A stretch of DNA of 64,000 nucleotides, from NCBI GenBank assembly GCA_016748015.1, contig JAAOMT010000299.1, positions 719,090 to 783,089 on the forward strand, read 5' to 3'. This DNA comes from Geosiphon pyriformis uo1. Its lineage: Eukaryota > Fungi > Glomeromycota. A program made the position numbers and the translations under genes. The notes beneath the pieces were generated by a model. The model searched no databases. It was given only the letters and a program-made list of their open reading frames with translations, and had not been told where the DNA came from. Positions 8,855 through 64,000 of the stretch are shown here, one piece after another (position 1 is the first letter of the stretch; each line of letters starts with the position of its first letter).

Positions 8855-8856
8855 TT

Positions 8857-8873
8857 TGGTGCTCCCTGTGAGG
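8857..8873 (+). promoter_or_regulatory. Primer-binding site TGGTGCTCCCTGTGAGG
   Basis: Begins with TGG 2 nt after the LTR. Complementary to a tRNA 3' end CCTCACAGGGAGCACCA; tRNA identity not determined. Confidence 0.88.
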
Positions 8874-12871: not shown

Positions 12872-13262
12872 ATGCCAGAATGTGTGCATAATACAGATAC
12901 AGAGTTTAATCTAAGATATCCAAGGAAAGATGTCATCAAATTAGAACCACATTTGCACATATGTATTGATCTCAAAGTAGCATTAGAAATCTCAGCAACC
13001 ACAATGGTTCAACTAGTATTTAGAAATAGCCTAGTGAAAAAAGGAATTAACATCAGAGGAGGAATAATTGACACAGGATATATGAGAAATATTATTATAA
13101 TGCTACAAAATAATTCAGAAAAGATCTATATCATAGAGCCAAATGAAAAAATAGCATAGGCAATATTCCTATTTCTAGTAAAAATAACTTAATTAATATC
13201 AGTAGAAAACAAGAAAAAATTAGAGATTACAGCTAAAGAAATACAGAGATTCGGATTAATGG
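12872..13262 (+). pseudogene. dUTPase domain within pol of element A
   Basis: TEFNLRY (motif 1), RNSLVKKG (2), GGIIDTGYMRNI (3), EKIA* (4), KEIQRFGL (5, decayed RGxxGFGS). Confidence 0.92.
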
Positions 13263-16104
13263 ATAGAATAGATATACCAGTCAATATGGCAGAAGAAGAG
13301 ATTATTGACAAGGAAGAAATTATCTTCATCCATCAACCAATCTCTATTCCACTATATAACCAGTACATGATAGTTATAGAGAGAAAAGTAAAAGATCAAG
13401 TTCAGATTTTTGAGACAGAAGCAATACTTTGTAAATCAAGAGAAATTGGATTAGTCAATTTACACATACCAGCCAAGAACTACAGTCACATCAAAATTTT
13501 CATTTACAACAACATAGAAAATATTATCAAAATACTAGAAAGAACCACTATTGGATACTTAACTACCGAAATTAAAGACCAACTGCCAAACACTATTCCA
13601 GACTTTTCACAACTGTGTGAATATGTAGATATTACATTACAAACAATATACAGACAAGAAGAATATTATTTGCTCCAACCAGAACAATTGAAATAGATGA
13701 ACTTGGGAAATTTAGACCCATTTCAATGAATACAGCTCAAAATGTTACTTAATAACTTCAAAAACATCTTCACCAGTAAAAATGAATTTGGCAGAACTGA
13801 CATAATTCAGCACCAGATCAAGACTAGAAATGCAATGCCAATCAAACAGAGAGCATACAGAATACTACCAGTTAGCCATGAGATCATTTGTCAAGAAATC
13901 AACCAGATGCTTGACAATGGGCTAATTTAGTCATTAATGAGCTCTTGGTTATTACCAGTGGTATTAGTCTGAAAGAAAAATAGAAAGATCTGTTTTTGTG
14001 TGGATTATTGAAAACTGAATGGAATAACTAAAGGTAATAGCTATCTAACTCCAAAGATCCAAGAACTGTTCAATGCTTTTGGAGAAAAGAAATGGTTCTC
14101 GACTTTAGACTTAGATAGTAGTTACTGGCAATTAGCCATGAAGTCAGAAGATAAAGAAAAAACAGCTTTTACAACATAAAAAAAGAATTTTGAATTTGAA
14201 GTTATGCCATTTGGCTTGATGAATGCTCTAGCCACTTTCCAATAACTTATGAAAATTATCTATACTGGACTACTATAGAAATTAGTAGTTATATACTTGG
14301 ATAACACCAATGTGTTTTTAGAAACATTTGATAATTATCTGTATTATCTCCAACAAGTATTTAAAAAACTCAGACAGGCAGAATTGAAACTAAATGCCAA
14401 CAAATACTTCTTTAGAAAAACTGAACTCAAGTTTTTAGAACATATTGTAAACAAAGATGGTATCAAAACGGATCCAGATAAGATTGAGATTGTTAAGAAC
14501 TTTCCAGTACCAAATAATTTCACAGAATTAAGAGCATTCTTGGAATTTGCTGAATACTACTACCACTTTATCAAAGACTTTTCCAAAATAGCTCAATTAC
14601 TATACCAATTCCAAACAAAGAACACCAAATATGAATGGACTGAAACTCAACAAGAAGCTTTTAATACACTAAGAAAAAAGCTTATTCAAGCCCCAGTACT
14701 AATCTATTCAGATTATAGCAAGCCATTCATAATCACAACTGATGCATTGGATTAAGCATTGAGAACAGTACTATTGCAGAGAAAACCAGATGGAAGAGAA
14801 CATCCAGTAGCTTATACCAGCAGAAGCTTAAAGTCCAGCTAAAAAAAACTATTGAACTCCAACACTAAAACACTTAGCTATTTATTGGGCTGTCACCAAA
14901 TGGAAAGAATACTTGAGTCAAAAGTTTAATGTGTACATTAATCACAAAGAATTGACTTCAATCCAGAAGCAAGAATTTGGAGATAATTGTTATGCAAGAT
15001 AGAAAATAGTACTATCATCATATACATTTACAGTACATTATAAAAAGAGAAAAGACAATGGAAATGCCAACAGTTTGTTGTGAATGAGACAAATCTAAAA
15101 ACATTTCAAACCCAAAAATATAACAAAACATGAATATACAAAAATACCAACAACTTTAATATTATATAAATACCCAATTGTTCAAGAAGAAATTATCTCA
15201 AAAGAAACAAAACAACATAAAACAACAATCAAAATATTTTATCAATTACCAAAATATACTTTACCAGAAGAACAAAAGAAATCCAGATCAACTAACCAAA
15301 GTAATTACAGAATCAGAGAAAGAGACAATATTATTCAACATGTACTCAGATCCAACAGCAGGACATTTTTATAAAAAAGCAACCATAGAAAGAACCAGGA
15401 AAAGATACTATTGGTCATCAATGTATCCAGACATCATCTAATATGTTCAAAATTGTAATGCTTATTAAAAAAGAGATGGAACAAAACTCAGCAAACTGTT
15501 AAAACCAATTAAAATAGGACAACCATTCAACTGAATTGGAATTGACTTAGTCAGACTGTTAATAATCACCAGCAGAGACAACAGATAGATCACAGTAGTC
15601 ATAGACTATCTTACTAAATGGCCAGAAACAAAAGCAATTCAAAAAGCAGATGCAGAATTCATTGCCAAATTCATTTATTAAAGATTTGATCTGTTGACAC
15701 AGATGTCCAAAAAAATTATTATTAGATCAAGGAACTCACTTTGTGAATAGAACATTGGCAGAATTAAGTCAAAGATTTGGGATAAAAAAACCATTATTAT
15801 CACCATACCATCCACAAACAAATGGGCTAGTTAAAAAATTTAACAGAACATTGTGTAAAGCCATCACCAAAATCAGCCAAAAAAACCAGAACGAATGGGA
15901 TTTGATTATATTATCAGTATTATTTGCTTATTGGACAATGAAGCAAGACACTACACAAGCAATACCATTCGAGTTAGTATATGAAAGAACAGCAACATTA
16001 CTAGTTGAGATAGAAGTCAAAACATATTCAACAGAACCAATAACAGAAGAGAATTTCCAAAGAACATTGTTAAGAAGAACATATGACTTAATGAAGACAC
16101 AGAA

Positions 16105-16584
16105 AACATTGTGAACAAAATAATCACAAAAGTAAAATTGGCAATAAAAACACAACCAAAAGTCACCCAATATCAAGAGTTGACTATAGATACTTGGAAT
16201 TGGTAGATACAACAATTTCCAAGAAACTTTTGTTACTTTTATTTGGGACAATACTTGAATATTCAAGGCTTGTATACAGATAAAACAAAACAATTATTTG
16301 ACACAACAATACTGCAACAACTGGAACAATTTATGGAGAAAAACAATTTGATCACACAAGCAAGAGCTATTTATTGACTACATACTGGATTTCAAGATTG
16401 ACCAGAAATCTTACTTCATCCAGAAATAAACTTCATTACCATTAACTAAATAGAAAAAATAACCAATGCTTAATTTGGAGAATTACAGAACAAGATAGCA
16501 CAAATAATTCTTAAAAAAGAAGTTCAAAAAATACTCAAAGATGAAGAATTAGAATTAGAAAATCTCAACAGAGCTCAATATTAA
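16105..16584 (+). pseudogene. ORF3 of element A (N-terminus deleted)
   Basis: Frame from 16141: ..CYFYLGQ..QARAIY*LH..ILLHPEINFITIN*IEKITNA*FGEL..NLNRAQY*. Aligns by eye with ORF 50944-51609. Confidence 0.8.
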
Positions 16585-16598
16585 AGAGAAGGAAATAA

Positions 16599-17459
16599 TG
16601 TTACTCATATAATATAGGAAGTATATTAACATATAAATTAGCCAATCAGAAGTAACTGTAGTAAATGTGGAATTCCAGAATTCCTCTTAAAAGAATTGTA
16701 GGATTCCAGGAATTTTAGGATTCTCATACAAGGAATCGCAGGATTCCAGAATTCCAAAATTCCTCTCAAAAGAATTGCAGGATTCCAAGAATTCCAGAAT
16801 TCCTGATGGGAAGAATTGAAGAATTGAGGAATCTCAATTATGTATATATAGCAGTAGTGCTAGAAGTAGAAAAGGCAGAATCTTTCAGTTAAAAACCTCT
16901 CAGTTTAGATTTGATCTAAGCAATCTTCCATTTACAAATATCAATAAATAATTATTCTCTATCTCAAATTCACTCTTCACTATCAATACTTCATGTTGAT
17001 AGTAATTGATACTTAACCACACTGGAACAATAGCTCTTGATCATGGCTATTGACAAGTTACTAACTTTTATTGTCTTGGCTTATTTCTTTATTTCTTTAT
17101 TTTTCTTTTATTTCTTCTATCTTCTTTGTTATTTCTTTATTGTGTACTAATTAATTAAGGGATTAAAGCACTAAATTATTGACATCAAGAATTGCCTGGT
17201 AAAAGACCTCTGTGAGTGGATAGAGCATGTAAAGAAATTATGGATTACTTATCAGAAGAGTACCAGTCATTAAGCTAAAGAACAAAATTAACAGAATTGT
17301 GATTCTGAGAAGCTATGGATAAACAACTATTAAATCTCTGTCCATTATACAAAGGACTCAAACCAAAACCTTTAGATTATCATCATTGCAAATAGCTTCT
17401 GAGCACCAAGTTATGAGTTTTGTTATTTGATTTGAGATCCCAAATAATCACCTATAACA
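16599..17459 (+). repeat. 3' LTR of element A
   Basis: Direct repeat of 7979-8854, preceded by the purine tract AAAGAGAAGGAAATAA. Confidence 0.96.
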
Positions 17460-30000: not shown

Positions 30001-30062
30001 CTTAAAAAAAAACTTATAAAACACTTTCCTTAAGTATTGGTAACTTAGTATTAGAATATTAT

Positions 30063-30983: not shown

Positions 30984-31160
30984 CTGTTCAAACAGAAATA
31001 ATGTCTATGGTAATAAATTCTCTAGCTAGTGAAAAGAATTCTTTTTAGTCAACAAAGTTTTAAACAATAGTTCTTATATTTTTCAAGATCAATTCAGAAC
31101 AATCTTTAATAATCATTCTGTTTATAATACATGACTTAAAAAATATCATAAACGACTTGA

Positions 31161-35989: not shown

Positions 35990-38900
35990 TGTTATAAGTG
36001 ATTATTTAGAATATTAGAACAAATAACAAATCTGTAACTTAATGCTCAATAGTTGGAAATATTAGTAATTTTCGAAAGTTTTGGAGTTTAAAGATTTTGG
36101 TTAAGTCTTTTATATAATAAACAAAAATTTAATTGATGGTTTTTTCTGTGAATTTCTTTTTTTAGCATAGTAACCAGTTTATTTTGACAGTCATATCTTT
36201 CTGATAAGCTATTCTTAAATTTTTACTCTTGTTTTCAGGTTTTTTATCAAGTTATTCTTAATGTTAAATACTTAGTACTTGATTTCTTTTATCAATTAGT
36301 AAACAACAAAAAAATAAAACAAAAAAAAATAAATAAAAATAAAAAATTTAAAATAAAAAATTAGTATTCTGTTAATAGTTATAATTAAGAGCTATTAATT
36401 TAGTATGATTAAGTATTAAAGTTTATTAACATAAATTGTTAATAGTAAAAAAGTAATTAATATTCTTAATCAAATAATAATAACATAAATTTAGATAATA
36501 ATTAAGTATTTTTATTGATATTAATATGATTTTATTTCAAGTTATAAAAAACTATCTTTTAAAGAGAGAGGTATAAAATAAGTTGTTATTTTTAACTTGG
36601 ATTGAATTGTATCCTTTTTTTCTGTTTCTAATACTTTTACTATAAATATATAATTTGATTTTTTGAAATTTTTTATTTTTTTTAAAAAGAATTCTGTAAT
36701 TCTGTAATTCTGCAATTTTGGGATTTTACAATTTCTTAAGAAAAATTCTGGAATTCTGAAATTTTGGAATTTCACAATTTCTTGAAAAGAATTCTGGAAT
36801 TTCTTTTTACTATACCTATTTCTAATTGGCTATTTTATCTACTTATTATAATTCCTAATTTCTATAAGTAATATTATTCCTTTCTTTTAATATTGAGCTC
36901 TATTGAGATTTCTCAAATCTTCTAAATCTATATTAGTATGTAAATAAGGTTCTAATTTGATAATAGTTTTTTTAAGATATTTAAAATTAAACCTTGTATT
37001 AGTATTATGTATTTGTTCTAATATAATATTTTCATTATTTTTGCTAAACTATTTGATTTTCTGCTTCTTGAAAAAATCTGGGAGCATAATATATTGTTCA
37101 GAATTATAATCAAAGTTTGAATTATTATTATTATTGTTGCTATAGTAAATAGTATTAAAACTATTGTCATTGTTATTATTAAAGTCTGAATTACAATTGA
37201 ATTTTGATTTTGATTCTGAAGTACAGCTGCTAATTGGTTCTTTCTCTTTGGGAATCAAATAAATTATGCTTGATAGTGAATTGTAAATAAGATTACAATT
37301 GTTACAATATTCAAAGTTATTAAAAATTAGGTAATGTTTACAAAATATAGTATTTAATTGTTTTAAATATTGCTTTTGTTCTTTTTAAGTAAATACTAGA
37401 TCTTGGTAATGTTCATAGAATTGTTTAAGATTGTTCAAAATGTCAATAAATACATTTGAATTGGAAATAAAAACAGTTTTGACAAATTTTGATAAGTTAT
37501 TCTTGATTGTAAGTATTTTACTAAGTGAAATATTTTTGATTTTAGCACTTGTTATTTTCCAGATCTTGTCTTCATTGTGTAAATAACTGTTCAAATATGA
37601 AAGTGCTCAGTTTTACACAGTATTAAAAGACATTTTTCAGCTTACACAGTCATTAATAAGAATTGTGTATTAACACAATATATTGTATATTCTTTCTTAA
37701 CCAGAAATGTTATTTTATATTCCTTTATTAAGTAGTGTTTCTCCACAAGCAAGACATAATTTTTTGTTTCACTTTTCTTGTTATTTTGGATATTCAAAAT
37801 GTTTTCAGTAGTATAACTTGCAATAATAGTGGATACATATCCAGTAATCTTCTTTGGGTGAGATCCAAGCTCTTATAAAAGAAAGCTTTTTCTTGTAATC
37901 TTTGTATTTAAATAGGATATATGATGGTTTTTTTTTTGTGTTCACTAAGTAGGATACATGTTAACTATTGGATAATTTTTAAATAGCAATAGTGGCTTGT
38001 GGTTTATCTTTTTTTTTTTCTTTTCTCTTGTTATTTCAAGAAAGTATTGGTGGTAATTTGTTGTGCTTATTTTCAGTTCACAAAACTTGGTAAGCTTTTC
38101 AAATAGATTTTTTTTTTCTTTTTCAAATTTAATTAGTGGTAATTGGATGGTAGCATTTGTTTTAAAGTGGCCACAGATGGTTGGTACTCAAGTATGCTGA
38201 TTATTTTGACTAAGCTGAAACTTTTGGATAGTTTAATCAAGCACAGTATTGGTCTTAAACAGCCAATTATTACTAACAAAAGCTTAATACTATGTGGCTT
38301 TCATAATAAAAACTTTGATAAATGTAATAATACTGTTAATTTCAAAAGGAAAGTTGTTAATTTTGCCAATAGAAGTTTTAATGATTTTATTAGCAGTAAT
38401 GATTTTAACACTGACAGCATGATCAACTTGGTATTCTAATTGGTTTATGAGTTGTTATGTAATAATATTGTCTGCTAAACTATTATTAAGAACTAACTTA
38501 ATAAATTGGCCATTAATTTTAACATTTGTATATATGATTGTAATAAATTTTGTGTTAAAAACAGTTCTATTAAACAGAGATGTTGTTACTGGTTCTTTCA
38601 GTTTAAAAAAAATATTGTAATGAGTAATTTGTCTTCTATAATGGTGGTAGGTAAAATATTGTTGGTGAATATTTTCTGGATTTCCAAGTTATTAAATAAG
38701 TTGTTTGTTGAAATAGCTAAAAGACTTAAATAATTCTGAAAATTTGAGTTTTAGATATACTCACTTTTCAAATTTCTTGGACATGATTCTGATAATTGGT
38801 TTGATGAACTGAAAATTAGTTGGTATATAATCATTGTTAATCTTTAGTTCTATTATATATGGATGATTCTTGGTCTTTGGCTTCTATTTAATACTGACAT

Positions 38901-39159
38901 AGTATTTTGAAGTGGCACTTGAATTTATTGGGATTTATAAATTATTTATGGCTGTAGTTAATATATTATTGGTGCTGGAGTTTGATAAATTAGAAATGAG
39001 TATATTGATTGTTATATTATTAAAGTATAAAAAAGCTAATATTAATATTATTCTTAATTTAGAGTGTAATTTAAAGTTTAAAACTAACAATTGAGGTTTC
39101 GATATTAATTTCCTAATTATTGGTTATTTAATCTGGTTTTCCAATTCATTTTTAAGTAT

Positions 39160-40064
39160 TGTTATTCATAGAAATTTAGAAATTCTTAATAAGAAAATAA
39201 AGTAGCTAATTAGAACCAAGTATAATAAAAAGAGGAATTTTAAAATTTTAAGAATTTCAAAATTCCTTTTAAAGAATTACTGAATTCTATAGATTTTAGA
39301 ATTTCTCTTAAAGAATTACAAAATTCTAGGAATTCCAGAATTTCTGGCTAGAAAAATTCAAAAAATTCAAAAAATCTTATATAATATTAATTATATATAT
39401 AAAGTGAAAGTATTAAAAACAGAAAGAATAAAATCTAGCTTAAAAACAATACCCACAATTAATTAATGATCTCATATCTCTTCCTTCAAAAATAGTTTTC
39501 TATAACTTGAAATGGAATCAAATCAAATATCAATAAAATATCAATTATTACCTGAATTTATGTTATCATCACTTGATTAAAGACATCTTAAAAAAATCTT
39601 TTTTATTTTATCAACACTTTATGTTGATAAAATTCAACACTTAATTACACTGAACCAATAGCTTTTAATTACAGCTATTGATGAGATACTAATTTTTTTT
39701 ATTTTTTTTATTTTTTTTTATTTTTTTTTAGTTTTATTATTGCTTACTAACTGATTAAAGAATTAATACATGGAGTTATTGACATTAAAAAAGACTGGTA
39801 AAAAATCCAGAAATAAGGGTAGACACTCAAAAATTGAAGATAGCTTATCAAAAAAAACCAGCTATCAAGCTAAAAAAAAAATTTATAGAATATACTTCCA
39901 AGAAAGTACTAAAACAACCATTGAATTTCTGTCTATTATGTAAAAAACTCAACCAAAACCTTCAGATCATGAAAATTTTTAGATATTAAAACTACTATCA
40001 GCTATTAAGCACCAAGTTATAAGTTTGTTATTTGTATCAACACCCCAAATAATTACTTGTAACA
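39160..40064 (+). mobile_element. Solo LTR, A-like family, inside gag of element E
   Basis: TGTTAT..GTAACA with a perfect GTAT TSD. Confidence 0.93.
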
Positions 40065-41787
40065 GTATTTTTGTTTACTATAGTAGTAATAATTGCATGT
40101 TTTTTGTTGCCATGATTAATTTATTAATAATGATGATATTAAATATAACTGATTCTAGAAACAATTAGAGTTTTTTTGATTTTTATGACATTGTAGAGAC
40201 TGATAAATTGCTTAATTATTAGCTAAATATCTTTTGATCTTTTAATTAATGGTTTTGCCAAATTGTTTTAATTTAGTATTCAATTTAAATGATCTATTCA
40301 TTACTAGATTTATAGCTTAGACATGATTGGCTTCAAGTTTGGCCAATTTAAAATCTCTGACATGAGTGATTGTATTTTGGAGAGTATTTAAATATATTAG
40401 ACATACTTGTTGTAATAAACTGCTGTGTAATTTACAAATAAATTGATTTAAGATCTGTAATACTATAAAGTAGTTAGCTTTAATTGTCTAAATTTGGCAC
40501 AAATTTTTATAAAAGCATTTCAAGTAAGTGGTAATTGCTTTAATATTATTTTGTTTAATTATAGTAAAGTTAATTAATAGGTAATTAATGCTATTGTGAT
40601 CATTAAAATATTGTAAAAATGCAGTTTTAAATGTGTCAAAATCTTAAGGTTTGTTGACCAGATTGTAATACCACAAGTTAACTATATTTTATAAAAAATA
40701 GAAAATTGTCTGAAAGGCTCTGGCATTATTCCAATTATTGATAGTAATTGCTTTGGCTATGTCATTTAACCAGACTTGGGTGTTGTTTTCTTGATAAATT
40801 TTTCAAGTTTTACAATTAATATATAGATTATTGGTACTAGTAATAGTTGTTGTTAAGATTGTTGTTGTTATGTAGCAATTGATACAGCTGGTAAATTGAT
40901 CATAATAATTGAAGATAAGTCTTGATAAATAATAAGAGTAGAGTTTAGATTGTTTGGGTTTTAAAAAACTTAAACAATCAGAGTTTGTATTTCTGAGTTA
41001 TCTAAGATCAGATTTTAATAATTAAATCTCTGATTATTATTTTATTTTTTTTTGAGTTGGTTTTTTCCCAAAAACTGGTGGTTTTAAGATCTGGTTGAGA
41101 TGGTAGTAATCAAAGTCTTAATGGGATTGTTGGTCACAATTTAAATCTTTCAAAAAAATTACTGTAGATTTCTGGTTTTCTCCTGATTATTTTAGAATAG
41201 TACTTATGATAATAGTGCTTTTGTTATTAACATTGATATTGGTGCTGGTTTTCTATTAAATTATATCTTACAGAGAACACCAAATATTATAGGAGATTAT
41301 TTGGGATGTTAGAACAAATAACAAACTTATAACTTGGTACTCAATAGCTGGGAATATTGGTAATTTCTAAAAATTTTGGTTGAGTTTTTTGTATAATAAA
41401 CAGAAATTCAATTGATGGTTTTTTTTGTGAATTTTTTTTTCCAGCATAGTGGCTGGTTTATTCTGGTAATTATGCCTTTTTAGTAAACTATTCTTAAATT
41501 TCTATTCTTGTTTTTAGGTCTTTACCAGACTATTCTTAACATTAAATACTCAGTGTTTAATTTTTTTTTATCAATTTGTAAACAACAAAAAAATAAAACA
41601 AAAAAAAATAAATGAAAATAAGAAATTAGTATTTTATTAATAGTTATAATTAAAAGTTATTGATTCAATATGATTAAGTATCAAAGTTTATCAACATGAG
41701 TTGTTGATAGTAGAAAAAGTGATTAATATTTTTAATCAAATAATAATAACATAGATTTAAATGATAATTAAGTATTTTTATTAATAT

Positions 41788-42428
41788 TGTTATGAATTGG
41801 AATAACAAGCTAACAAATAGCAAGGGTGAATAAAATTGTAGGATGATAGAAATAATCAAAGAAAAAATTACAATATGAGAGCAAATTAAATAAGTAAGAA
41901 TTTAATATGCATAATCAATCTTATAAAAATCATAGTTACAAATCTTTTCTGAAAATCTGAAGGTAAAAAAATAGTTCATAATTGTCAACAAGATAATACT
42001 ACTGCAATTATTCTATGTTTCAACTTGGTAATTCTTAAAATTAATAACAGGTATTGTCATGTTTTTTAATTGTTTTTTTATTCAATAAATCACAAAAGCA
42101 AGCAATTACTTCTTAGGCTAATTCTAACAATACAAATTAAGAAGAAAAAAAGATAAGTTATGTAAATACCAATAAGTAATTTTTTATCCCAAGATATTCA
42201 GATATTTGAAGGTAAGAAAAAAGAAATAAGTAATATAAAAAGAAGTAATTGATAAGAGATTTTATTTTGTTGCTTTGATCATGTCTTTCTACAGCTAAGA
42301 AACTTATTGCTTATATAGCTATTAAAAGTGGTCAATAATTACTATTTAAAAATAGTATGGCTAATTATATAACATCAGTAGCAAATACATATGATAACTA
42401 ATAAAAAATATGGGTTTTAACTATAACA
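41788..42428 (-). mobile_element. Solo LTR, subfamily B1, inside the 5' LTR of element E
   Basis: TGTTAT..ATAACA with an ATAT TSD; matches 4568-5240. Confidence 0.9.
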
Positions 42429-42435
42429 ATATTAA

Positions 42436-45400
42436 ATCTTTATTGGTTAAAGTATAGAATTTTATAGAATATTTTTACATATATTGAATAAATTGTGAAG
42501 TTTAAAAGTTGTTCTGAGTCTGTAATGAGCATTTATTAGTCTGGTTGTTGTCTTGAATTTATTGTGTATTTGTTTTTATATAGCTTTGAGAATGAGATTA
42601 GTTGCTTTGAATTCTAGTTTCTATTGGTGCAATGTTTTTTTAATTTGAAAATATTAATAATTAAAAATATACTTACTGTTTTTATTAAAACACATTTAAA
42701 GTTTTTGTTGTATTATGACATTCAAAAAAATGTCAATAGGTGTAAACAATAAGTTTTCTTTTAAAGCTTGCTTCAAAAGTTCTGATAATTAACTTTTAGA
42801 ATAACTTCTTGTGTTTCTTCTATAAGAATAATATTTCTGGAAATTATTTACTATTGCAGTTGTAATTCTTTTTTAAGTATATTTAATATAATTTCTATTA
42901 ATTGTTATAAATAAGTCAGAGAGTATTTTTAAAGCTAACATTAATTTTTAGAATATTTGTTAAATGTTTTAAAAAATAAGCATTATAAAGTTAAATAAAA
43001 ATTAAATAAATTTTTATAAAACAAAAAAACAAAAAAAAAATATTTTTGGTATAAGAGTTTTATATATTTTTAATTTGGGTATTTTCTGGTAGTTATTTTA
43101 CTATTTTTGTTTAATGTTTCTATATTATTTTAAAAAAAATACTAATAAAAATTAAATTAAATATTCAGATTTGGTTATTGTTCTATTATAACTATTGGTT
43201 CTAAATTTTGGAGAATATCTTTAAAATTAATTAAAGAAAAATGTATATTAATTTGTGAAATTAGTAATTTAAGATTGTTTCTAAAATGATAATGGTTCAA
43301 TTAATTTTCATATGCAACTTTGGCTAGAACTTTGTTATTAAGCCTTAACTTATATAATCTATTGTCTAAAATTTCGTAAATATAAAATAATCTATTTTAT
43401 TTATGTTCAAATTTTCTATTCCATTGTTTTTTAGTCTTAATTCTATATAAGAAAACTTTGTTTTCAACTTTAAATTTATTAGTAACTAGTAGTAATTTGT
43501 TGTCATGTCATTTTTTTTGTTGGGCTTGAAAATGTTATTACTTATAGAAATTTAGAAATTCTTAATAAGTACATAAAATAGTTAATTAAAAATAAGTATA
43601 ATAAAAAAAGAATTTTAAAATTTTTCTTAAGAAATTGCAAGATTCCAGAAATTTCAGAATTTCTCATAAGAAATTACTAGATTCCAAGAATTCCAGAATT
43701 TCTGGTTAGAAAAATTAAAAGAATTCAAGAAATCTTGTATAACATAAAATATATATATATAGTAAGAGTGTTAAATGCAGAAAAAGTAATTTCTAGAGAA
43801 TTTAAATATAGTTTATATTAATTTAGAACAATACTCCTTCTTTTAAAAGATAGTTTTTTACAACTTGAAATAAAATTATTTCCATATTAATAAAATTATC
43901 TATTATTATTAAATTTATGTTATTATTACTTGATTAAGAATATTAATCACTTTCATCACTATTAACATTTCATGTTAATAAAATCTAATACTTAACTATA
44001 TTAAAACAATAGCTTTTGATTATAGTTATTAACAGGATATTAATTTCTTGTTTTTTTATTTTTTTTATTTTATTTTCTTTATTATTTACTAATTGATTAA
44101 AAAAATTAAGTACTGAATTATTAATGTCAAAAAAAACTGGTAAAAGACTCATGAAATAAGAATAAAAACTCAAAAATTGAGAATAGTCTATCAGAAGAAA
44201 CTAGCCATTAAGCCAAGAAAAAAATTCATGAAATAAGCTTTTAGAATAGTACTAAAACAATCATTAAATCTCTGTTTATTATACAAAAGACTTAATTAAA
44301 ACTTTCAGATCATAAAAACCTTTAAAAATAATCAATTATACAAACTATTGAACACCAAATTATGGGTTTGTTATTTGTATCAACACTCCAAATAATTATC
44401 TGTAATATTTAGTGCTTTCTGTAAGATATAATGTAACAAAAAACCATTACTAACATTAACCAAAAATTAGAGAAATACTTAGCTAGCAATTAAGCAATTT
44501 ATTAGCTTTCACAATGTTATAACAATTAAAAAAACTCCAATTATTTCCAAAATCAATCACATTTATTATCAACAAATTAACTATGGTAACAAAAAATGCA
44601 TAATTGTTACTATTGTAATAAACAAAACTATTTAAAAAGCAAATTGCCATTCTAGATTTAATAACTAATGATTAAAAAATCAATCTCAAAACTCTGATTG
44701 CAAATTTCAAACTCCAAATTACATCTTAAATTAAAAACAATATCAATACCAGTCTTATTACACCCCAATAACACAACAACCAATATATGTATCTTTAGTT
44801 TATTAGACTCTAATACCAGTAATCTATCAACTACAGCCACAAGTAATTTATTAACTATAGTTATAAATAATTTATTAAACTCAACTAATTCAAACACCAT
44901 CCCAAAATTTAGTTTAAATGATAACCAAAAATCAAAGGCCAAGAATTATAAACACTCAACAAGATTAACAATTAGCAATAATAAGGCACCAATCAATCTC
45001 CAGTTTATTAAATCAGCTATTAGAATTATGTCAATAGAGTTTAAAAAGTGAGTACACCCAAAACCCAAATTTTTAAAACTATTTAAGTTTCTTGATTACT
45101 CCAAAAAACAACTTATCTAACAACTTAGAATCCAACTTAATACCACTCACTAACAATATTCTATTAGTAATAGTCATTGAAAATAAGTTACTTGTAGTCA
45201 TCTTCTTTTTTAAATTAGAAGAATCAGTAATAACACCTTTATTTAGTAGAGCTATTTTCGATGCCAAACTAATTACTGTAATATATACAGATGCCAAAGT
45301 TTATGGCCAATTTATCAAGCTAATTCTTAATAATAAGTTAGCAGACAACATTATTACATAACAACTTATGGACCAATTAGGTTGCCAAGTTGATTGTACT

Positions 45401-47463
45401 GTTAGCACCAGAATTATCACAGCTAATAGAGTAATAAAAACTCTTATGGGCAAAATTGACAACTTTCTTTTTAAAGTCAAAAGCATTACTATGCCAATCA
45501 AAGTATTAGTAATAGAAGCCATACAATACCAAGCTTTTATTGGTAATAACTGGCTGTCCAAAATTAATATTATACTTGATGAGAACACCCAAGAGCTACA
45601 GTTCAGTCAAAATGATTAGCAAACTTGGATATCTGCTATCTATGGCTACTTCAAAACAAACACCACCACCTAATTACTACTAATCAAATTCAAAAAAAAA
45701 ACCTACTTGAAAGCCTATTAAGTTTTGTAGATTGAAAATAAACACAACAAACCACCACTAATACTCTCTTAAAACAACAAAAAAAAAGAAAAAAAAGAGA
45801 ATAAATCATAAGCCAACATCTTTACAAAAGAAACAAATAACAGTTGGCATATTTCATACTTGTCAAAACCAAAAAAAAAACTATCCTACTACTAAGATCT
45901 AGTACCTACTTAAGAAAAACAAAAGCAGCATTTAGAACAATTAAATACTAAACTTTGTAAACATTGTCTAATTTTCTGTGACTTAGAATATTATGTAAGT
46001 ATAATCTTATTTACAATCTGCCACTATGTATAATTTATTTAATTTCCAAAAAAAAAAACCAATTAGCAATTGTGTTTCAAAATTAGAATTGAAATTTAAT
46101 TCCAATTTAGACTCTAACAATGATAACAACAATAGTTCCAACTCCATTCACAATGGCAATAACAATAATAACAATTCAAACTCTAATAAAAACTTCAAAC
46201 AATATATTGTGCTTTCAGATCTTTTATAAAAACAGGAACTTAAATGGTTTAATAATAATAATAAGGATATTATGTCAAAATGTATGCATAATACTGATAC
46301 AGAGTTTAATCTCAGATATTTAGAAAAAACTGCCATTAGATTGAAACATTACTTATATACCAGTATAAAATTAAAAAATTTAGGAGATTTTAACAAAGCT
46401 CAATATTAAAAAAAGAAAATAATATTACTTATAAAAATTTAGGAATTCTTAATAAGTACATAAAATAGCCAATTAGAAATAAATATAATAAAAAAAAAAT
46501 TTCAAAATTTCTTTTAAAAAATTGCAGAATTTCAGGAATTTCAGAATTTTTTTTGAGAAATTACAAGATTCCAAAAATTTCAGGATTTTTGGTTAAAAAA
46601 ATTAAAAGAATATAAAAAATCTTGTATAATATAAAATATATATAGTAAGAGTATTAAAAACAGAAAAAATAATTCTCAGAGAATTCAAATAGAGTTTATA
46701 TTAATTTAAAACAATATTTCTTCCTTTAAAAAGTAGTTTTTTACAATTTAAAGTAAAATTATTTCCATATTAATAAAATTATCTATTATTATCAAATTCA
46801 TATTATTATTACTTAATTAAGAATATTAATTATTTTTATTACTATCAACACTCCATGTTAATAAAATTTGATACTTAATTACACTAGAACAATAGCTTTT
46901 AATCATGGCTATTGACAGAATATTAATTTTTTATTTTTTTATTTTTTTTATTTTTTTTTGTTTTGTTTTCTTTGTTATTTATTAATTGATTAAAAGAATT
47001 AAGTGCTAAGTTATTGACATCAAAAAGGACTGGTAAAAGACTTGTAAAATAAGATTAAAAACTTGAAAATTAAAAATAGCTTACCAAAAAAAACTGGCCA
47101 TCAAGCTGAAAAAAAAATTCATAGAATAAACTTCTGAGAGAATACTAAAACAACTATTGAATCTCTGTTTATTATACAAAAGACTTAATCAAAACCTTTA
47201 GATCATAAAAATCTTTAAAAATAACTAACTGTACAAGCTATTAAGTACCAAGTTACAGGTTTGTTATTTGTACTAACATTCCAAATAATCACTTGTAACA
47301 ATGCTCAATATGAGTTGCTATTATTTGTTTTTTTTCTTTCAACATACTAAGAAAAATATAAGTTCTTTATTGAAATGTCTTTTGAAAGTTATTTTTGTTA
47401 ATTGGTTGCACTAAGTATGTTTTTACTGAAAAATTAATTAGTAATATTGTTGTTCTTCCATAG
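42436..47463 (-). mobile_element. Old G-like fragment (ORF3 plus integrase C-terminus); hosts element F and abuts element H
   Basis: 42436-43535 and 47301-47463 are collinear with ~51100-52350. Confidence 0.8.
43536..47300 (+). mobile_element. Element F: complete 3.77-kb non-autonomous A-like derivative
   Basis: LTRs 43536-44407 and 46423-47300, TSD ATGT/ATGC, decayed PBS at 44410, PPT before 46423. The ~2-kb interior holds only the gag C-terminus, protease, part of the Cys-rich region and the dUTPase start. Confidence 0.92.
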
Positions 47464-48353
47464 TATTACAAATAATTATTTGGAGTATAGAAACAAATAA
47501 CAAATCTGTAACTTGGTGCTCAATAACTGGTAGTGTTGATAGATCTGAAGATTTTTATATCTGAAGATTTTGGTTAAGTTTTTTGTATAATAGACAGAGA
47601 TTTAATAGTAATATCTTTTGGTAATGTTTTTAATGTTTTTTTAACTCTTGAGTTGATGTACTTTGTTGTCTGTTACTTTTCAGAATATCTATATTCTGTC
47701 AATTTCTTTCTTAGCTTGGTGGCTGATATCTTCTAATAAGCTATCCTCAATTATGAGTGTGTATTTTTATTCCTGGGTTATTTACCAGTACTATATCCTA
47801 ACATCAGTACTCTATGCATTAATCCTTTTAATCAGTTAGTAAAACAACAAAAATAAAAAATATATATAAAAATAAATAAATAAAAAAAATAAATAAAAAA
47901 AAATAAAAAAAAAATTAGTATCTTATTAATAGCCATAATTAAGAGCTATTATTCTCATGTGATTAAATATAATTGTTATTAACATAAAGTATTAATAAAT
48001 GAAAAAGTGATTAAATTCTTAAACAAATAATAGCAACATGGATTGAATGATAATAGGTATGTTTTATTTTGATATTTTACTAATAAATTCACTTTGGTGG
48101 ATATTAACTATCTATAAAATAAAAGTTAATTAATAAATAAGAAAGAAAATGTTAAATTAGAACTGGATTCTGTTTTTTCTTACTTTTAATGCTATTTCTA
48201 TATATATATAGTTAGTGTTATATAAGATTTCTGGAATTCTGTAATTTTTTTAGAGAAATTCTGGAATTTTTCTGTTACTATGCTTATTTCTAATTGGCTA
48301 TTTTTTTAACTATGATATTCCTAATTTTTATAAGGAACAATTTTTTCTTCTTT

Positions 48354-48996
48354 TTAATATTAAGCTTTATTGAAATCTTCTAAACTTTCTAGATTTTCTT
48401 TTTGGATTAATTCTATAACTTTTTTCTCCAGAATTGCTTTTGTAATTTTGGTCTGTAATTTTTTAAATTGGGTATTAATTAATTTTTCCAATTGATTAAT
48501 TGTTACAATATTTATTCTCAGATATAATAATATTTCAAAATCTTATTTATAGTTAGTAAATAACTTTTATATATGTAAATAAATGGTTTTTTTTAACAAT
48601 TTGTTTAATTTGTTGTTAAATTGGATTAAATTTTTTTTTTGTTTTGTTAGTGTATAAGTTTTTGATACTTAATTGTTGTTCCAACTGATAGTAACAAAAG
48701 TTTTTTGGATTTTGTTGTATCTATTGGTTCCAATTTTTTAAAATTCATTCTTCTTTTGGTATTGGTATTTTTAGATCTTCTAATGTCTTTTTTATTTTTC
48801 TCATTATCTTATCTACAATGTTTTCAGAAGTATGGTGTTTAGAATATTGCTCTTTGGTTTGGTTTTTTTACATTATTTTCTTATCCTTGTATTAAATTAT
48901 GTGTTTATTAATGGTGATTTCTAAGCTTGATTCTTGTTGTTGAATTAGTTGTAATAGTTATTGTACAAGTAAGTAGATGTTGTCAGTGATTTCCAT
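48354..48996 (-). pseudogene. ORF3 of element H (full span, decayed)
   Basis: ATG at 48996: MEITDNIYLLVQ*LLQLIQQQESSLEITINKHII. Ends at the same ..Y-TAA before the PPT as in element A. Confidence 0.75.
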
Positions 48997-50943
48997 TTTT
49001 TTTTGTTGTTTTTATTGCACATGTTGGTTTCTTATATACTGTTATAGTAGATCAATTCGACATGTTTGATGATAATTGGTTCTAAATCTCATAAAATCTT
49101 ATCTGGTTTGACTAGTATTCTTTGTACTTCCAGTTATGAAATATTATTGATAAATAATAATACTATATTGTGGTATGGTTTCAGTTGATTTTTATGTGTT
49201 GTTTTAGCTAAAATTTTGTTGTTCTATCTTAGTTTATAAGCTTTATTTTCTAGAATTTTTTTAATGTGAAATAGTCTGTTCTATTTGTGATCGAATTTTT
49301 CACTCCATTGTTTTTCTATTTTGGTATGATGTAAAAATACTTTGTCTCCAATTCTAAATTCAACTGGTTTATTTGGTAATTGGTTATCATGTTATTTTTT
49401 TTGTTTTTTTTGTGACTTTTGAATATTATTAGCTGCTTTTTATCTTTTGTTTTTCAACATTTTTATTAGTTTGTATATTCTTCCTAGCAATGTTTTTTGA
49501 AAGTTGGCTTTTGTTATTGGTTCTGTTGAATATGTGTTAATGTCTATCTTAACTAATAATGTTGCTGTTTTATCATAAAAAAGTTTAAATAATGTTGCTT
49601 GTGTGGTATCTTGTTTCATTGTTTGATAAGCAAATAATACTAATAGTATAAACAAATATCATTTGTTCTGGTTTTCCTGGCTGATTTTTGCTATTGTTTA
49701 CACAATATTCTGTTAAACCTTTTCATTAAGTTATTTGTTTGTGAATGATATAATGATAATAATGGTCTTTTGATTTCAAATCTTTGACTTAATTCTCTTA
49801 ATATTCTGTTCACAAAATAGGTTCTTTGATTTAATAATAATTTTTTTAGATATCTATATTGATAAATTAAATTTTGGTGAACAATTTGGCTATGAATTTT
49901 GTATTTGCTCTTTGTATTGCTTTTGCTTCTGGCTATTTTGTAAGATAATTCATAGCTACTGCTATGTAATAGTTGTCTTTACTGGTTATTGTTAATGGTG
50001 TTACCGAAGGTTTTTGGTCTCTTTTCTTAATGGTTGTTGATGCCTGTTTGCTGTAAATTCACGTTTTCTGGATGTGGTTGAACCTCCAGTACTGAATTTA
50101 TCTTCAAATTATTTCCTATAATTTGAACTGCTGGACTTATAAGTGGAATGGCCAATTCCATGCCAGTTACTTTATGTAGTTACATTGTAGTAAATGTCAA
50201 CTCTTTCCCAGGAATTGCTTGTCTAGAAACTCATTAAAAATGTGTAGTTACTTTGCTGTAAAAGTCAACTCTTTTACAGGAATCTCATCTGTAGGCTACT
50301 CTAATGATTATAATAAGAAAATAAAATAAAAGTAAAAGAAAAGTAAAAGAAATTGAATTCTGTCAAGTAAAACGTTTTCTATCTAGACCTGGAGTCACTA
50401 ACGATTTACTGAAATTGGTAGCTAATCAATTTTAAAACATTAGTTGGGTTTTGGGAATTTTCAGATGTAATAATTAAGAAGTTGATTTTTGAATTATTTA
50501 ATATTTATTTCGTTTTTGTGTATTGAATTGATTCAATTTAAGATATCTAAAAGTAAGATATATTTTTTCGAAGAGAGAAGCTCTTTTTTTATACAACTTG
50601 TTATAGTACTAGTCTGTGAACTTGAATTATTTTTTTTACTATGATTTTGATGAACTAAAGGTACATTTCGGCAAACTTACAAGTTATTTCTACGAACTAT
50701 TGAATATTTCAGTGAACTATCAATTATTTCAGCAAATTTACACAAATTTTGGCAAACTTTTGAATATTAACTGGTTCAGGGTATTGTGTAATTTGATTGT
50801 TCTAATTTCTATAGTATAAATTATGTTATTAATTGATTAATAATATTTGATAATTTGATTGAATAATAAGTGATGATTTGAAATGATAATATATGCTAAT
50901 TAATGATAGAAATTATAAGGGTAATTTCATGTTAATTAATATC

Positions 50944-58817: not shown

Positions 58818-61800
58818 AATATTACTGGAGGTTTTTGGTCTCTTTTTTTAATGGTTGTTGATGCTTGTTTGCTGTAAATTCACGTTTTCTGGATGTGGTT
58901 GAACCTCTAGTACTGAATTTATCTTCAAATTATTTCCTATAATTTGAACTGCTGGGCTTATAAGTGGAATAACCAATTCCGTGCTAGTTACTTTATGTAA
59001 TTACATTGTAGTAAATGTCAACTCTTTCCCAGGAATTGCTCGTCTGGAAGCTTACTAAAAATGTGTAGTTACTTTGCTGTGAAAGTCAACTTTTCTACAG
59101 GAATCTCATCTGTAGACTACCCTAATGATTATAATAAGAAAATAAAATAAAAGTAAAAGAAAAGTAAAAGAAATTGAATTCTGTCAAGGGAAACGTTTTC
59201 TATCCAGGCCTGGAGTCACTAATGGTTTACTGAAATTGGTAGCTAATCAATTTCAAAATGTTAGTTGGGTTTTGGGAATTTTCAGGTGCAATAATTAAGA
59301 AGTTGATTTTTGAATTATTTGATATTTATTTCGTTTTTGTGTATTAAATTAATTCAATTTAAGATATCTAAAGGTAAGATATATTTTCTCAAAGAGAGAA
59401 GCTCTTCTTTTATACAACTTGTTGTAGTACTAGTCTGTGAACTTGAACTATTTTCTTTATTATGATTTCGACAAACTAAAGGTACATTTCAGCAAACTTA
59501 CAAGTTATTTCTATGAACTATTGAATATTTCAGTGAACTATTAATTATTTCGGCAAATTTACACAAATTTCAGCAAACTTTTGAATATTGACTGGTTCAG
59601 GGTATTGTGTAATTTGATTGTCCTAATTTCTATAGTACAAATCATGTTATTAATTGATTGGTGATATTTGATAATTTGATTGAATAATAAGTAATGATTT
59701 GAAATAATAATATATGTTAATTAATGATAGGAATTATAAGGGTAATTTCATGTTAATTAATATCTCAAATTTCAGTTGGTAATAATGGTCTAACTAAGTT
59801 AATTCTGATTCAATTAAATAGTTGTTTCACTTTAATTGGTCTTGTTTTTTTCCTTTTCTGACAAGCATTACAATTTTGAACATATTGAATAATATCTGGA
59901 TATATTAATGACCAATAGTATTTTTTTTTGTTCTTTTTATGGTTGCTTCTTTATGAAAATATTCTGCTGTTGAATCTGAGTGCATGTTAAATAGTATTGT
60001 TTTTTTTTTGGTTTTATAATAACTCTGAATGGCTGATTTAGATCTTTTCTATTTTTCTAATATAATATATTTTGGTAAATAATAAAGTATTTTAATTGTT
60101 GTTTTATGTTGTTTTATTTTTTTTAAGATAATTTTTTCTTAAACTGTTAAATATTAATATAATATTGGAGTTGTTAATATTTTTGTGTTTATTTTTTGTT
60201 ATATTTTTGGATTAAAATATTTTTAGAATTATCTTATTCATAACAAACCATTAATATTTCTATTTTTTTTCTTTTTTTATAATGTATAATATAATTAAAT
60301 AGTGATAATTTTATTTTTTATCTTGTATAACTGGATTAATGTTAATTCTTTGTAATTAGTATACACATCAAACTTTTGACTCAAATATTCTTTCTATTTG
60401 ATGACAACCCAATAGATAGCTAAGTGTTCTAATGTTGGGATTCCATTGTTTTTTTTGGCTCAACTTAAACTTTAGCTGGCATATCCTACTGAATATTTTT
60501 GTCTATTTATTTCTTTTTGTAACAATACAGCTTTTAATGCTTGACTGGATGTATTGGTAATAATGATAAATAGTTTGCTGTAATCTGAATAGATCAATAT
60601 TGATGCTTGAATAAACTTTCTTCTTAAGATGTTAAAAGCTGCTTGTTGAATTTCAGTTCATTTATATTTTACATTCTTTGCTTAAAGCTGGTGAAGTGGT
60701 TGAGCCAGTTTGGAAAAGTTTTGGATAAAATGGCAATAGTATCTAACAAATTCCAAGAATGTTTTTAATTCTATAAGATTTGTTAATACTAAAAAGTTTT
60801 TGATAATTTTAATCTTATTTGGATCCATTTTGATGCCATTTTTGCTTATGACATATTCCAAAAACTTGAGTTCAGATTTTCCAAAGAAATACTTTGTAGC
60901 ATTTAACTTTAGTCTGGCTTTTTTTAGTTTTTTAAATACTTGTTAGAGATGGTAGAGATAATTGTCAAACGTTTTGAAAAACATGTTGGTATTATCCAAG
61001 TATACCACTACTGATTTCCATAGTAGTCTGATATAAATAATTTCTATAAGCTATTAAAAAATGGTTGGCACATTTATTAAGCCAAATGGCATAACATTAA
61101 ATTCAAAGTTCTTTTCTCTGATTGTAAACATTGTTTTTTCTTTGTTAGCTGAATTTATGGCTACTTGCCAGTAATCATTGTCTAAATCCAATGTTGAAAA
61201 CCATTTCTTTCTTCCAAATACATTAAATAGTTTTTGGATTTATGAAATTGGATAGCTGTCTCCACAAGTCACACTGTTGAGTTTTTTATAATCTACACAA
61301 AAGCAGATCTTTTCATTCTTTTTTTGGACTAGTACTACTGATAATAACTATGGACTCATTTATAATTGAATTAATTTGTTGTTCAACATTCTGTTGATTT
61401 CTTGTTAAATAATTTCATGGCTTGCTAGTAATATTCAGTATGCTTTTTGTTTGATTGGCATAGCATCTCCAGTTTTGATCTAATGCTAAATAATGTTAGT
61501 TCTGCCAAATTTATTTTCACTGGCAAATATATTGGTAAAATTGTTGAGAAGCATTTTAAATTGCATATATTAAAGTGGGTCTATGTTTCTCAAGTTCATT
61601 TGATCTAATTGTTCTGGTTGAAGCAAATAACATTTTTCTCATCTGTATATAGTTTATAATGTTATATTCACATATTTGCACAATAGTGGAAAATCTGAAA
61701 TAGTGTTTGGCAGTTGGTTTTCAACTTCAATGCTTAAGTATCTAATGGTAATTTCACTTGGTATTTCAATAATCTTTTCAGTTATATTATAAATAGAAAT

Positions 61801-62029
61801 TTTGATGTGCTTATAATTCTTGGCTGATATATAAAGATTGATAATTCTAATCTTTCCTAATTCATAAATAGTTGGTTCTGCTTCAAAAATCTGGGGCTAA
61901 TTTCTTACTTTTCTTTCTATTATTAACATATGCTGATCATATAGTAAAATAGAAACTAATTGATGAGTAGAGATAATTTCTCTCTTATCAATTGTTTCTT
62001 TCTCTGCCATATTAATTAGTACATCTATT

Positions 62030-62425
62030 TTACCTATGGATCCAAATATATTTTTTTCTCTTGCTGTAATCCCTAATTTTTTTCTTGTTTCTATTGGCAC
62101 TAATTAAGCTATTTTTACCAAAGGTAGAAATATTGCTTGTGTTATTTTTTCATTTGGTTCAATGATATATGGTTTTTCTAAATCATTTTGTAGCATTGCA
62201 ATAATATTTCTTACATATTCTGCATTAATTATTCCTCCTTTAATATTAATTTCTTATTTTGTTAATCTAGATCTAGATATTAATTGAACCATTATTGTTG
62301 TCAGGATTTCTAATGTTATCTTCAAATCAATACAATGCATATATTAAGCTCCAATATTATGGCATATTTTTTTGGATATCTTAGATCAAATTCTGTATTA
62401 GTATTATGCACACATTTTGGCATAA
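62030..62425 (-). pseudogene. dUTPase domain within pol of element H
   Basis: TEFDLRY..KGGIINAEYVRNI..EKITQAIFLP..ITAREKNIFGSIG. Confidence 0.88.
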
Positions 62426-63445
62426 TATCTTTGTTATTATTACTGAACTATCATAGTTTTTGCTCTATAGAAAGATCTAAGAGCATGATATATTGTTTGG
62501 ATTTTAAATTGGAGTTTGAATTGTTATGATCATTGTTATAGTAAATAGAGTTGAAACTATTGTTGTTATCATCATCAGAATTTGAATTAAGATTGAACTT
62601 CAATTTCTCTACTGTATACTTGTTGATTGGTTCTTTTTTTTAGAAATTGAATAGATTATACATAATAGTAAATTGTAAATGAGGTCACAATTATCACAAT
62701 AATTAAAATCACTGAAAATTAAGCAATATTTACATAGTTTTGTGTTTAGCTGTTCCAAATGTTGCTTTTATTTTTCTCTAGTAGATGCTAAGTCTTAGTA
62801 GTGTTTGTGAAATTGTTTTGGATCATTCAGGATATCAAAAAATACATCTAAATTGGGAATCAAAATGGTCTTAACCAGTTTTGGTGGGTTATTTTTGATT
62901 ACTAATATTTTGCTGGGTAATGCACTTTTAACTTTAGTACTTGCCATTCACCAAATTTTGTTTTTGTCATGGAAATAGCCATTTAAACATGATATTACTT
63001 GGTTCTATGTGACATTAAAAAATGTTTCTCAGCTTACCCAGTCACTTATTAAAATTATGTATTGACACAATGAATTACATATTTCTTCTCTATTAGGAAT
63101 GTTATTCCATATTCTTTTATTGAGTAGTATTTTACTGCAAGCAAGACATAATTTATTGTTTCACTTTTTTTGTCATTTTGGATAACCAAAATGCTCTTAG
63201 TGGCACAGTTTACAGTAATAATGAGTTTACATTCAGTAATTTTTGTTTGGTGCAATCCAAGCTCCTATGGATAAAAGTTTTTTCTTGTAATTAATACATT
63301 TAAGAAGAATATAGAATGGTTTCTTTTTTGTGTCTACTAAGTACAAAGTGTGCTAACTGTTGACAGTTTCTTTGGTGTCAGTGGTGTTTTGTGGTTTATT
63401 TTTCTCTTTTCCTTTTTTTTTGTCATCCCATAATAGAATTGGTGG

Positions 63446-64000
63446 TGTTACCAGAGGTTTTTGGTCTCTTTTCTTGAATGTTGTAAATGTCTGTTGGTTG
63501 CAAATTCACGTTTTTTAGAAGTAGTTGAACCTCCAATAACTGAATTTATCTTCAAATTATCTCCTATAATTTGAACTGCTGGGCTTATAAGTGGAATGGT
63601 TAATTCTTTGTCAGTTACTTTATGTAGTTACGTTGTAGTAAACATCAACTCTTTCCCAGAAATTGCTCGTCTGGAAGCTTACTAAAAAAATGTGTAGTTA
63701 CTTTGCTGTAAAAGTCAACTCTTCTACAGGAATTTCGTTTGTAGACTACCCTAATGATTGTAATAAGAAAAGAAAAGAAAAATAAAAGAAATGTAAAAGA
63801 AATAGAATTCTGTCAAGGGAAACGTTTTTTATCCAGGCCTGGAGTCACTAACAGTTTACTAAAATTGGTAGCTAATCAATTTCAAAATGTTAGTTGGGTT
63901 CTTGGGGATTTTCCAAGTGCAAATAATTAAAAAATTTGGTTTTTTGAATTATTTGATATTTATTTCTTTTTGTGTGTGTAGGAATGGTTCTAAGTGATAA
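63446..64000 (-). mobile_element. G-family LTR inserted in element H, cut by the window end
   Basis: TGTTACCAGAGGTTTTTGG.. matches 49999 onward; left flank GTGG. Confidence 0.92.

What the first reader, a model, noticed from the sequence alone, without database searches (positions are those of the whole stretch)
35990..47300. Mobilised non-autonomous Gag-protease family defined by a shared in-frame deletion
Seen: E (minus, junction ~36925) and F (plus, ~46370) are separate insertions with the same breakpoint. The dUTPase start (..EPYLHTNIDL / ..KHYLYTSIKL) joins in frame to the last ~12 codons of ORF3 (EDLRNLNRAQY* / KNLGDFNKAQY*) at a GAT-T-(A)GAAG-like microhomology. About 4 kb is removed (most of dUTPase, RT, RH, IN, ORF3), while LTRs, PBS and PPT remain. 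Inference: the deletion arose once and then spread using enzymes of autonomous A elements, like plant TR-GAG elements. The clean borrowed stop suggests Gag-PR translation mattered.
Basis: partly seen in the sequence, partly recalled or inferred. Interest (0 to 1): 0.75.

Follow-up and report, generated by a model that had tools for sequence, protein, structure and literature searches.

The report
Old Pol-less fungal retrotransposon lineage
At least four decayed copies of a fungal jumping gene share the same cut that removes its copying enzymes, so one shortened ancestor likely spread by borrowing them from intact relatives, a lifestyle already known from wheat.

Summary
E (minus) and F (plus) are decayed Ty3/gypsy copies whose dUTPase start joins the last 12 codons of ORF3 in the same register, with no gap between them. 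The cut is 3.58 kb against A1 and about 4.16 kb against G. Two more contigs, neither E nor F, cross the same junction without gaps, so at least four copies exist. Segmental duplication of E and F is excluded: LTR transversions are 0.9-1.4% within each element and 8.1-8.6% between them. Protease transversions between E and F fall 2/1/18 on codon positions 1/2/3, which is purifying selection. Three corrections: F also lacks the capsid domain; neither copy meets the TR-GAG definition; an in-frame join has about a one-in-three chance and proves little. Best reading: one deleted master spread in trans as a Gag-protease lineage like wheat RLG_WHAM and RLG_Sabrina_SA. It is small and old: 0 of 280 related predicted proteins carry the junction. 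All named relatives are Geosiphon pyriformis proteins. New member of a known kind.

The parts
35990..36873 (-). E 3' LTR
36874..36886 (-). E polypurine tract
36887..36922 (-). E: last 12 codons of ORF3 including the stop
36923..36928 (-). E deletion junction (microhomology zone)
36923..37027 (-). E dUTPase remnant (about 35 codons)
38130..38560 (-). E aspartic protease core, decayed (5 stops in 138 codons, catalytic Asp now Asn)
39160..40064 (+). Solo LTR of the same family inserted backwards into E's gag, 4-bp TSD GTAT
40250..40815 (-). E capsid (Retrotrans_gag) domain, decayed
   Evidence: Pfam E 0.04, below cut-off; aligns to A1 capsid and to P0131 at 50%
41266..41284 (-). E primer-binding site, decayed
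41285..41798 (-). E 5' LTR, 3' part only; cut where an LTR of another family begins
43536..44407 (+). F 5' LTR; TSD ATGT at 43532-43535
44408..44426 (+). F primer-binding site, decayed
44450..44460 (+). F-only deletion joint removing the capsid domain (about 1.0 kb against E, 1.56 kb against A1)
45250..45680 (+). F aspartic protease core, decayed (3 stops in 138 codons, catalytic Asp now Asn)
45880..45892 (+). F-only deletion joint in the PR-dUTPase spacer (about 0.5 kb against E)
46269..46373 (+). F dUTPase remnant; junction zone 46368-46373
46374..46409 (+). F: last 12 codons of ORF3 including the stop
46410..46422 (+). F polypurine tract
46423..47300 (+). F 3' LTR; TSD ATGC at 47301-47304
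7978..17459 (+). A1: near-full-length relative used as reference (gag, PR, dUTPase, RT, RNase H, IN, ORF3), decayed
47460..50000 (-). G, 3' part (IN C-terminus, ORF3, 3' LTR): second full-pol reference
59783..63446 (-). G, middle part (spacer, dUTPase, RT, RNase H, IN start), split from its 3' part by element H

Best explanation
E, F and at least two other copies share one deletion of the pol enzymes and likely descend from a single shortened master of a dUTPase-bearing Ty3/gypsy family that likely spread by borrowing reverse transcriptase and integrase from intact relatives while likely still making its own Gag and protease. Shown: shared junction, own LTR pairs, PBS, PPT, a TSD for F, at least four copies, and purifying selection on the protease along both the E and F branches. 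Inferred: the deletion arose by a jump across a 4-6 base microhomology (template switch or illegitimate recombination); its RNA was packaged with helper Pol; the lineage lasted long enough for E and F masters to differ by 8% transversions in the LTR; the inserted copies then died by heavy C-to-T and G-to-A decay. F's capsid loss is likely a later event, either after insertion or in a further reduced sub-lineage. Odds: copied deleted form from one origin about 0.8; selection acting on the deleted lineage's own Gag-protease about 0.6.
For: Ungapped junction in E and F. Of the 8 longest of 1,452 contig pieces shown, 3 cross the junction: F itself, record 7 (27 differences in 155) and record 8 (25 in 136), both without gaps. 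E would give 43 and 36 differences. A full-length copy would cost 25-26 of 37, or 34 of 50, on the right side alone, or 55-56 of 86 on the left. LTR pairs cluster by element, and E+F+solo LTR group against A1 and G with 95-97% support. Quartet transversions favour E+F: 18 vs 9 and 6 in the LTR, 6 vs 3 and 0 in the spacer. Protease transversions E vs F are 2/1/18 of 138 codons, p 6e-7; per branch 0/1/7 for E and 2/0/11 for F. The larger E-F indels in the gag C-terminal region are multiples of three. E-F divergence relative to A1 does not differ between junction-near and distant regions (p 0.41), as expected for one lineage. 6,477 alternative 6-mer pairs.
Against: Only two copies could be read whole; flanks and TSDs of records 7 and 8 are unknown, so they could be old duplicates or alleles of F. 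Selection on the protease would look the same if E and F diverged as autonomous elements. F has no capsid domain. E and F share a stop and the Asp-to-Asn change in the protease motif; parallel decay can explain this (shared-decay odds ratios computed's counts are 2.2-2.4 for E-F and 1.7-4.1 against G), but inheritance is not excluded. One codon in the junction differs between E and F. Codons that E and F share just left of the junction also occur in contigs that continue as dUTPase (loose end at 46347, 11 reads), so they mark the parent subfamily, not the deletion. Fourfold-site transversions are lower near the junction than in the protease (3 of 49 vs 13 of 62, p 0.03 uncorrected), a weak hint of mosaicism. 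0 of 280 related predicted proteins carry the junction, so no young coding copy was seen.
Confidence: 0.6

Rival explanations
1. The deletion arose once and spread, but it was passed between backbones by recombination with co-packaged helpers. The protease constraint then reflects autonomous ancestors, and the deleted element did not need its own Gag-protease.
For: Lower fourfold divergence next to the junction (3 of 49 vs 13 of 62). F lacks the capsid domain yet has both LTRs and a TSD. Recombination among family members during reverse transcription is documented (PMC6894440, passages read).
Against: The pooled near-versus-distant test is not significant (p 0.41). It needs crossovers on both sides of a short segment.
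Confidence: 0.2
2. The same microhomology was hit twice, in two sister autonomous subfamilies (E type and F type); at least the F type was then copied.
For: E and F LTRs differ by 8% transversions with subfamily-specific indels. The GAT/AAA codon could mark crossovers 1-2 bases apart. A dUTPase-continuing subfamily with the same adjacent codons exists.
Against: Thousands of equally good 6-mer pairs exist. There is no GT-AG pair at the joint that would make it a splice hot spot. 25 contigs read T at 46370, so F's A may be private.
Confidence: 0.13
3. The copies are dead post-insertion deletions multiplied by segmental duplication or gene conversion, never retrotransposed.
For: Flanks of records 7 and 8 are unseen. 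This window holds other post-insertion deletions and rearrangements.
Against: E and F have different hosts, and each has LTRs far closer to each other (0.9-1.4% transversions) than to the other element (8.1-8.6%), which a duplication cannot give.
Confidence: 0.05

Closest known systems
RLG_WHAM and RLG_Sabrina_SA of wheat ('semi-autonomous' gypsy, PMC9744471; abstract and passages read)
   Same: Gag and protease kept, RT and integrase absent, LTRs and PBS kept for mobilisation by an autonomous partner. Further reduced variants exist (RLG_Sabrina_NA9 keeps only a partial protease), as F does here.
   Different: Those have thousands of copies, an intact Gag-Pro ORF and almost no sequence likeness to the helper. 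Here there are 4 to perhaps two dozen decayed copies in a fungus, plainly cut from the helper family, with a readable breakpoint and a dUTPase/ORF3 fusion tail.
Fatima subfamilies famc1.4 and famc1.5 of wheat (10.1101/363192; passages read)
   Same: Subfamilies that hold gag and protease ORFs only, within a family whose other subfamily supplies RT and integrase.
   Different: Plant, high copy number, ORFs intact.
TR-GAG elements of plants (PMC4350172, abstract and passages; mobility shown in PMC8704663, passages)
   Same: LTRs, PBS and PPT with pol lost; at least two copies; moved in trans.
   Different: TR-GAG is under 4 kb with capsid and no protease. E is about 5.3 kb with a protease; F is 3.8 kb with a protease but no capsid.
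dUTPase-bearing fungal gypsy elements: PosPlaTy3-5 of Postia placenta, and elements of Phanerochaete chrysosporium and Tuber melanosporum (PMC2864245; passages read)
   Same: The parent family has dUTPase between PR and RT, as PosPlaTy3-5 does.
   Different: No chromodomain hit here; an extra ORF3 of no known family lies before the PPT. Phylogenetic placement was not tested.

Membership tests
Ty3/gypsy LTR retrotransposon (parent family A) | Order PR-RT-RNase H-IN between LTRs | tested here: met
   Pfam on A1 read through stops
Ty3/gypsy LTR retrotransposon (parent family A) | LTR pair, PBS, PPT, TSD | tested here: met
   TSDs are 4 bp for A1, F, the solo LTR and H
TR-GAG | Length under 4 kb | tested here: not met
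   E about 5.3 kb without the solo LTR (4,901 bp with a truncated 5' LTR); F 3,765 bp meets it
TR-GAG | Capsid similarity present | tested here: inconclusive
   Present in E, absent in F
TR-GAG | No aspartic protease, RT, RNase H or IN | tested here: not met
   Both keep a protease
TR-GAG | At least two copies in the genome | tested here: met
   At least four
Semi-autonomous Gag-Pro gypsy (WHAM / Sabrina_SA kind) | Gag and protease only, no RT or IN | tested here: met
   Met for E; F has lost the capsid as well
Semi-autonomous Gag-Pro gypsy (WHAM / Sabrina_SA kind) | Intact Gag-Pro ORF | tested here: not met
   Both copies carry stops; past function is inferred from transversion patterns only
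Semi-autonomous Gag-Pro gypsy (WHAM / Sabrina_SA kind) | Same PBS and LTR ends as the helper | tested here: met
   Same as A1 apart from decay-type changes
Semi-autonomous Gag-Pro gypsy (WHAM / Sabrina_SA kind) | Matching subfamily structure and insertion ages with the helper | not testable with these tools
In the window, LTR transitions are 15% for E and F and 10% for A1, so A1 itself is younger than E and F.
Spliced subgenomic retrocopy (copia-like gag RNA; model recalled, no call) | GT-AG ends at the removed segment | tested here: not met
   The nearest left GT dinucleotides in A1 lie inside the retained part or beyond the switch point (read)

The most novel reading that the evidence does not exclude
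A long-lived semi-autonomous Gag-protease lineage in a Glomeromycotina fungus that arose from one datable deletion, split into LTR subfamilies, kept its protease under selection without its own Pol, and threw off still smaller capsid-less derivatives such as F. My searches (listings only) showed no description of such a system in fungi.
Probability: 0.4. Interest if true: 0.45.

Novelty: new member of a known kind. Interest (0 to 1): 0.3.

Why it matters
If true, it extends the helper-and-passenger design known from cereal retrotransposons to an early-branching fungus whose genome is 41% LTR sequence (PMC11952901, passages read). The breakpoint is still readable, so the origin of the lineage could be dated and selection before and after the deletion compared. 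It does not change a textbook view, the copies are dead and few, and no host function is implied.

Tried and rejected
Laying contigs of runs X1-X3 on A1's interior (62,086 laid from X1) showed no 12.9k-to-16.55k joint among the 15 joints shown of 275; this is uninformative, because E and F are under 80% alike to A1. No RNA holder was listed. A degenerate junction pattern found 0 matches in metagenome contigs. Protein searches found no junction protein: 0 of 1, 0 of 94 representatives, 0 of the 120 listed of 461 hits, 0 of 73 ORF3 hits; proteins of some lengths were not searched, and decayed copies are rarely predicted as genes. Splicing as the cause was rejected (no GT-AG). My early idea that the junction segment is younger than the protease failed the pooled test. 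Reading 39160-40064 as E's 5' LTR was rejected (opposite orientation, own TSD). ORF3 has no Pfam match and was not characterised further. The soybean LTR-swapping paper was not held; I saw only its title in a reference list. The G. pyriformis genome papers were not read, and no supplements were read; a repeat library there may already hold this family.

Full report
Setting. The window is a nest of decayed LTR retrotransposons with GC 26% and CpG observed/expected 0.11, and 0.02-0.03 in E, F and G. No whole genome is held. Every named protein hit is a Geosiphon pyriformis hypothetical protein: 1 of 1, the 120 listed of 461, and 73 of 73. The parent family A is represented by A1 (7978-17459, LTRs 88% alike) and by G, which is split by element H. 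Pfam on A1 read through its stops gives Retrotrans_gag, protease, dUTPase, RT, RNase H and integrase in gypsy order; ORF3 before the PPT has no match. dUTPase between PR and RT is known from fungal gypsy elements (PMC2864245, passages).

Anatomy of E and F. E runs on the minus strand from a truncated 5' LTR (41285-41798) to a 3' LTR (35990-36873). The LTR at 39160-40064 is not E's: it faces the other way and has its own 4-bp TSD. E keeps capsid, protease, the Cys- and Asn-rich spacer and about 35 dUTPase codons. It also lacks about 0.57 kb of A1's gag N-terminus, of unknown origin. F (43536-47300, TSD ATGT/ATGC in an H-family host) keeps the protease but has lost the capsid domain and about 0.5 kb of spacer.

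The junction. E and F align without a gap from the dUTPase start to the ORF3 stop. The removed part is 3,576 bp against A1 and about 4,160 bp against G. The tail is truly the ORF3 end: 31 of 73 ORF3 homologues match the tail motif, and several end almost exactly as E and F do. The microhomology is 4-6 bases, depending on which ORF3 variant was the parent; this is inferred through decay. One codon in it reads GAT in E and AAA in F. There is no GT-AG pair at the joint, so splicing is not the cause. The in-frame join is weak evidence, since one deletion is in frame about one time in three.

More copies. Contigs of run X1, which holds the window and may be its source, were laid on 46230-46500 at 80% likeness: 1,451 were laid, and the 8 longest of 1,452 pieces were shown. 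Three cross the junction: F itself, record 7 (46255-46409, 27 differences, no gaps) and record 8 (46287-46422, 25 differences, no gaps). E would give 43 and 36 differences, and full-length copies cannot fit within those totals. Records 7 and 8 overlap by 123 bases, so they are different sequences. That makes at least four copies. Summed depth falls from 17,000-30,000 on the dUTPase side to 2,331 at 46368, where single records have depths of 57-100. The tool warns that depth is no copy number; read loosely, it caps junction contigs at this likeness near two dozen. Flanks of the new copies are unseen. Among 280 related predicted proteins, none carries the junction; 172 of the first 207 read straight on into dUTPase. 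The lineage is therefore small and has left no young coding copy that I could find.

Not a duplication. Within each element the two LTRs differ by 10-15% transitions but only 0.6-1.4% transversions. E and F differ by 8.1-8.6% transversions, with indels shared by both LTRs of each. So their masters diverged while active, before these insertions. E and F group together against A1 and G, though a solo LTR of unknown origin falls in the same group.

Selection. Decay after insertion is almost all transitions, so transversions record the active phase. In the protease, E and F differ by 2, 1 and 18 transversions at codon positions 1, 2 and 3 over 138 codons (p 6e-7), split 0/1/7 on the E branch and 2/0/11 on the F branch. 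The spacer and dUTPase remnant give 7/3/7 over 156 codons, too few to show relaxation. Against my reading: both copies share a stop and the loss of the catalytic Asp. CpG-type parallel decay can explain this, as G shares decayed sites with E and F about as often as they share them with each other, but inheritance is not excluded. Fourfold sites near the junction are less diverged than in the protease (p 0.03 uncorrected), but the pooled test is not significant (p 0.41).

Mechanism. Most likely one RNA or DNA copy jumped across the microhomology, kept everything needed in cis, and was copied with Pol from intact family members for long enough to form LTR subfamilies, with its own Gag-protease still under selection (0.6). 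Rivals: the junction moved between helper backbones by recombination (0.2); two deletions at one site (0.13); duplication only (0.05). Repeated hits are unlikely because A1's pol region holds 6,477 6-mer repeat pairs at least 1 kb apart.

Comparison with what is known. It works like RLG_WHAM, RLG_Sabrina_SA and Fatima 1.4/1.5 of wheat (PMC9744471, abstract and passages; 10.1101/363192, passages). It is not a TR-GAG by the published criteria (PMC4350172, abstract and passages). A sugar beet survey treats such coding-remnant families as one broad category (PMC13570524, passages). Searches for a fungal or Geosiphon case (listings only) showed none, but most subscription papers and all supplements were outside my view. 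Earlier scan notes on similar Pol-less elements are unchecked and were not used as support.

Verdict. Observation confirmed; interpretation partly supported; new member of a known kind; interest 0.3.

Noticed in passing
window 16083-16102 (A1) against 48825-49474 (G): A1 lacks about 0.63 kb covering the integrase C-terminus and the start of ORF3, so the best-preserved element in the window is itself deleted.
   Followed up: partly
window 16087-16584 and about 48350-49000: ORF3, about 200 aa between integrase and PPT, has 73 homologues, all G. pyriformis, and no Pfam family. Its C-terminus carries a variable number of three-residue D-L-G/R repeats. An extra gypsy ORF of unknown function.
   Followed up: partly
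window 11900-12800 (A1), 37030-37990 (E), 62410-63400 (G): A long Cys-rich and then Asn/Ser-rich spacer lies in frame between protease and dUTPase; no Pfam match.
   Followed up: no
window 50001-59782: Element H, with 961-bp LTRs 93% alike and a 4-bp TSD, is a second dUTPase-bearing gypsy family and the youngest insertion seen; it splits G.
   Followed up: no
window 4552-7978, 17464-17830, 18900-33300: A third LTR family (about 680-bp LTRs) occurs in several nested, inverted pieces; only its integrase region resembles family A.
   Followed up: no
window 41798-43530: E's 5' LTR stops at an LTR of the third family, and beyond it lies an H-family fragment; the rest of E's LTR and the 5' half of its host are missing, which points to a local deletion or rearrangement.
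   Followed up: partly
whole window: Decay is almost all C-to-T and G-to-A, reaches non-CpG sites, and removes nearly all CpG. Whether this is methylation-driven or RIP-like was not tested.
   Followed up: no
window 46319-46378 (table 5): One contig joins 46319 to 46378 with 23 letters on the short side and unknown letters between; it may be a different dUTPase-to-ORF3 deletion or an artefact.
   Followed up: no
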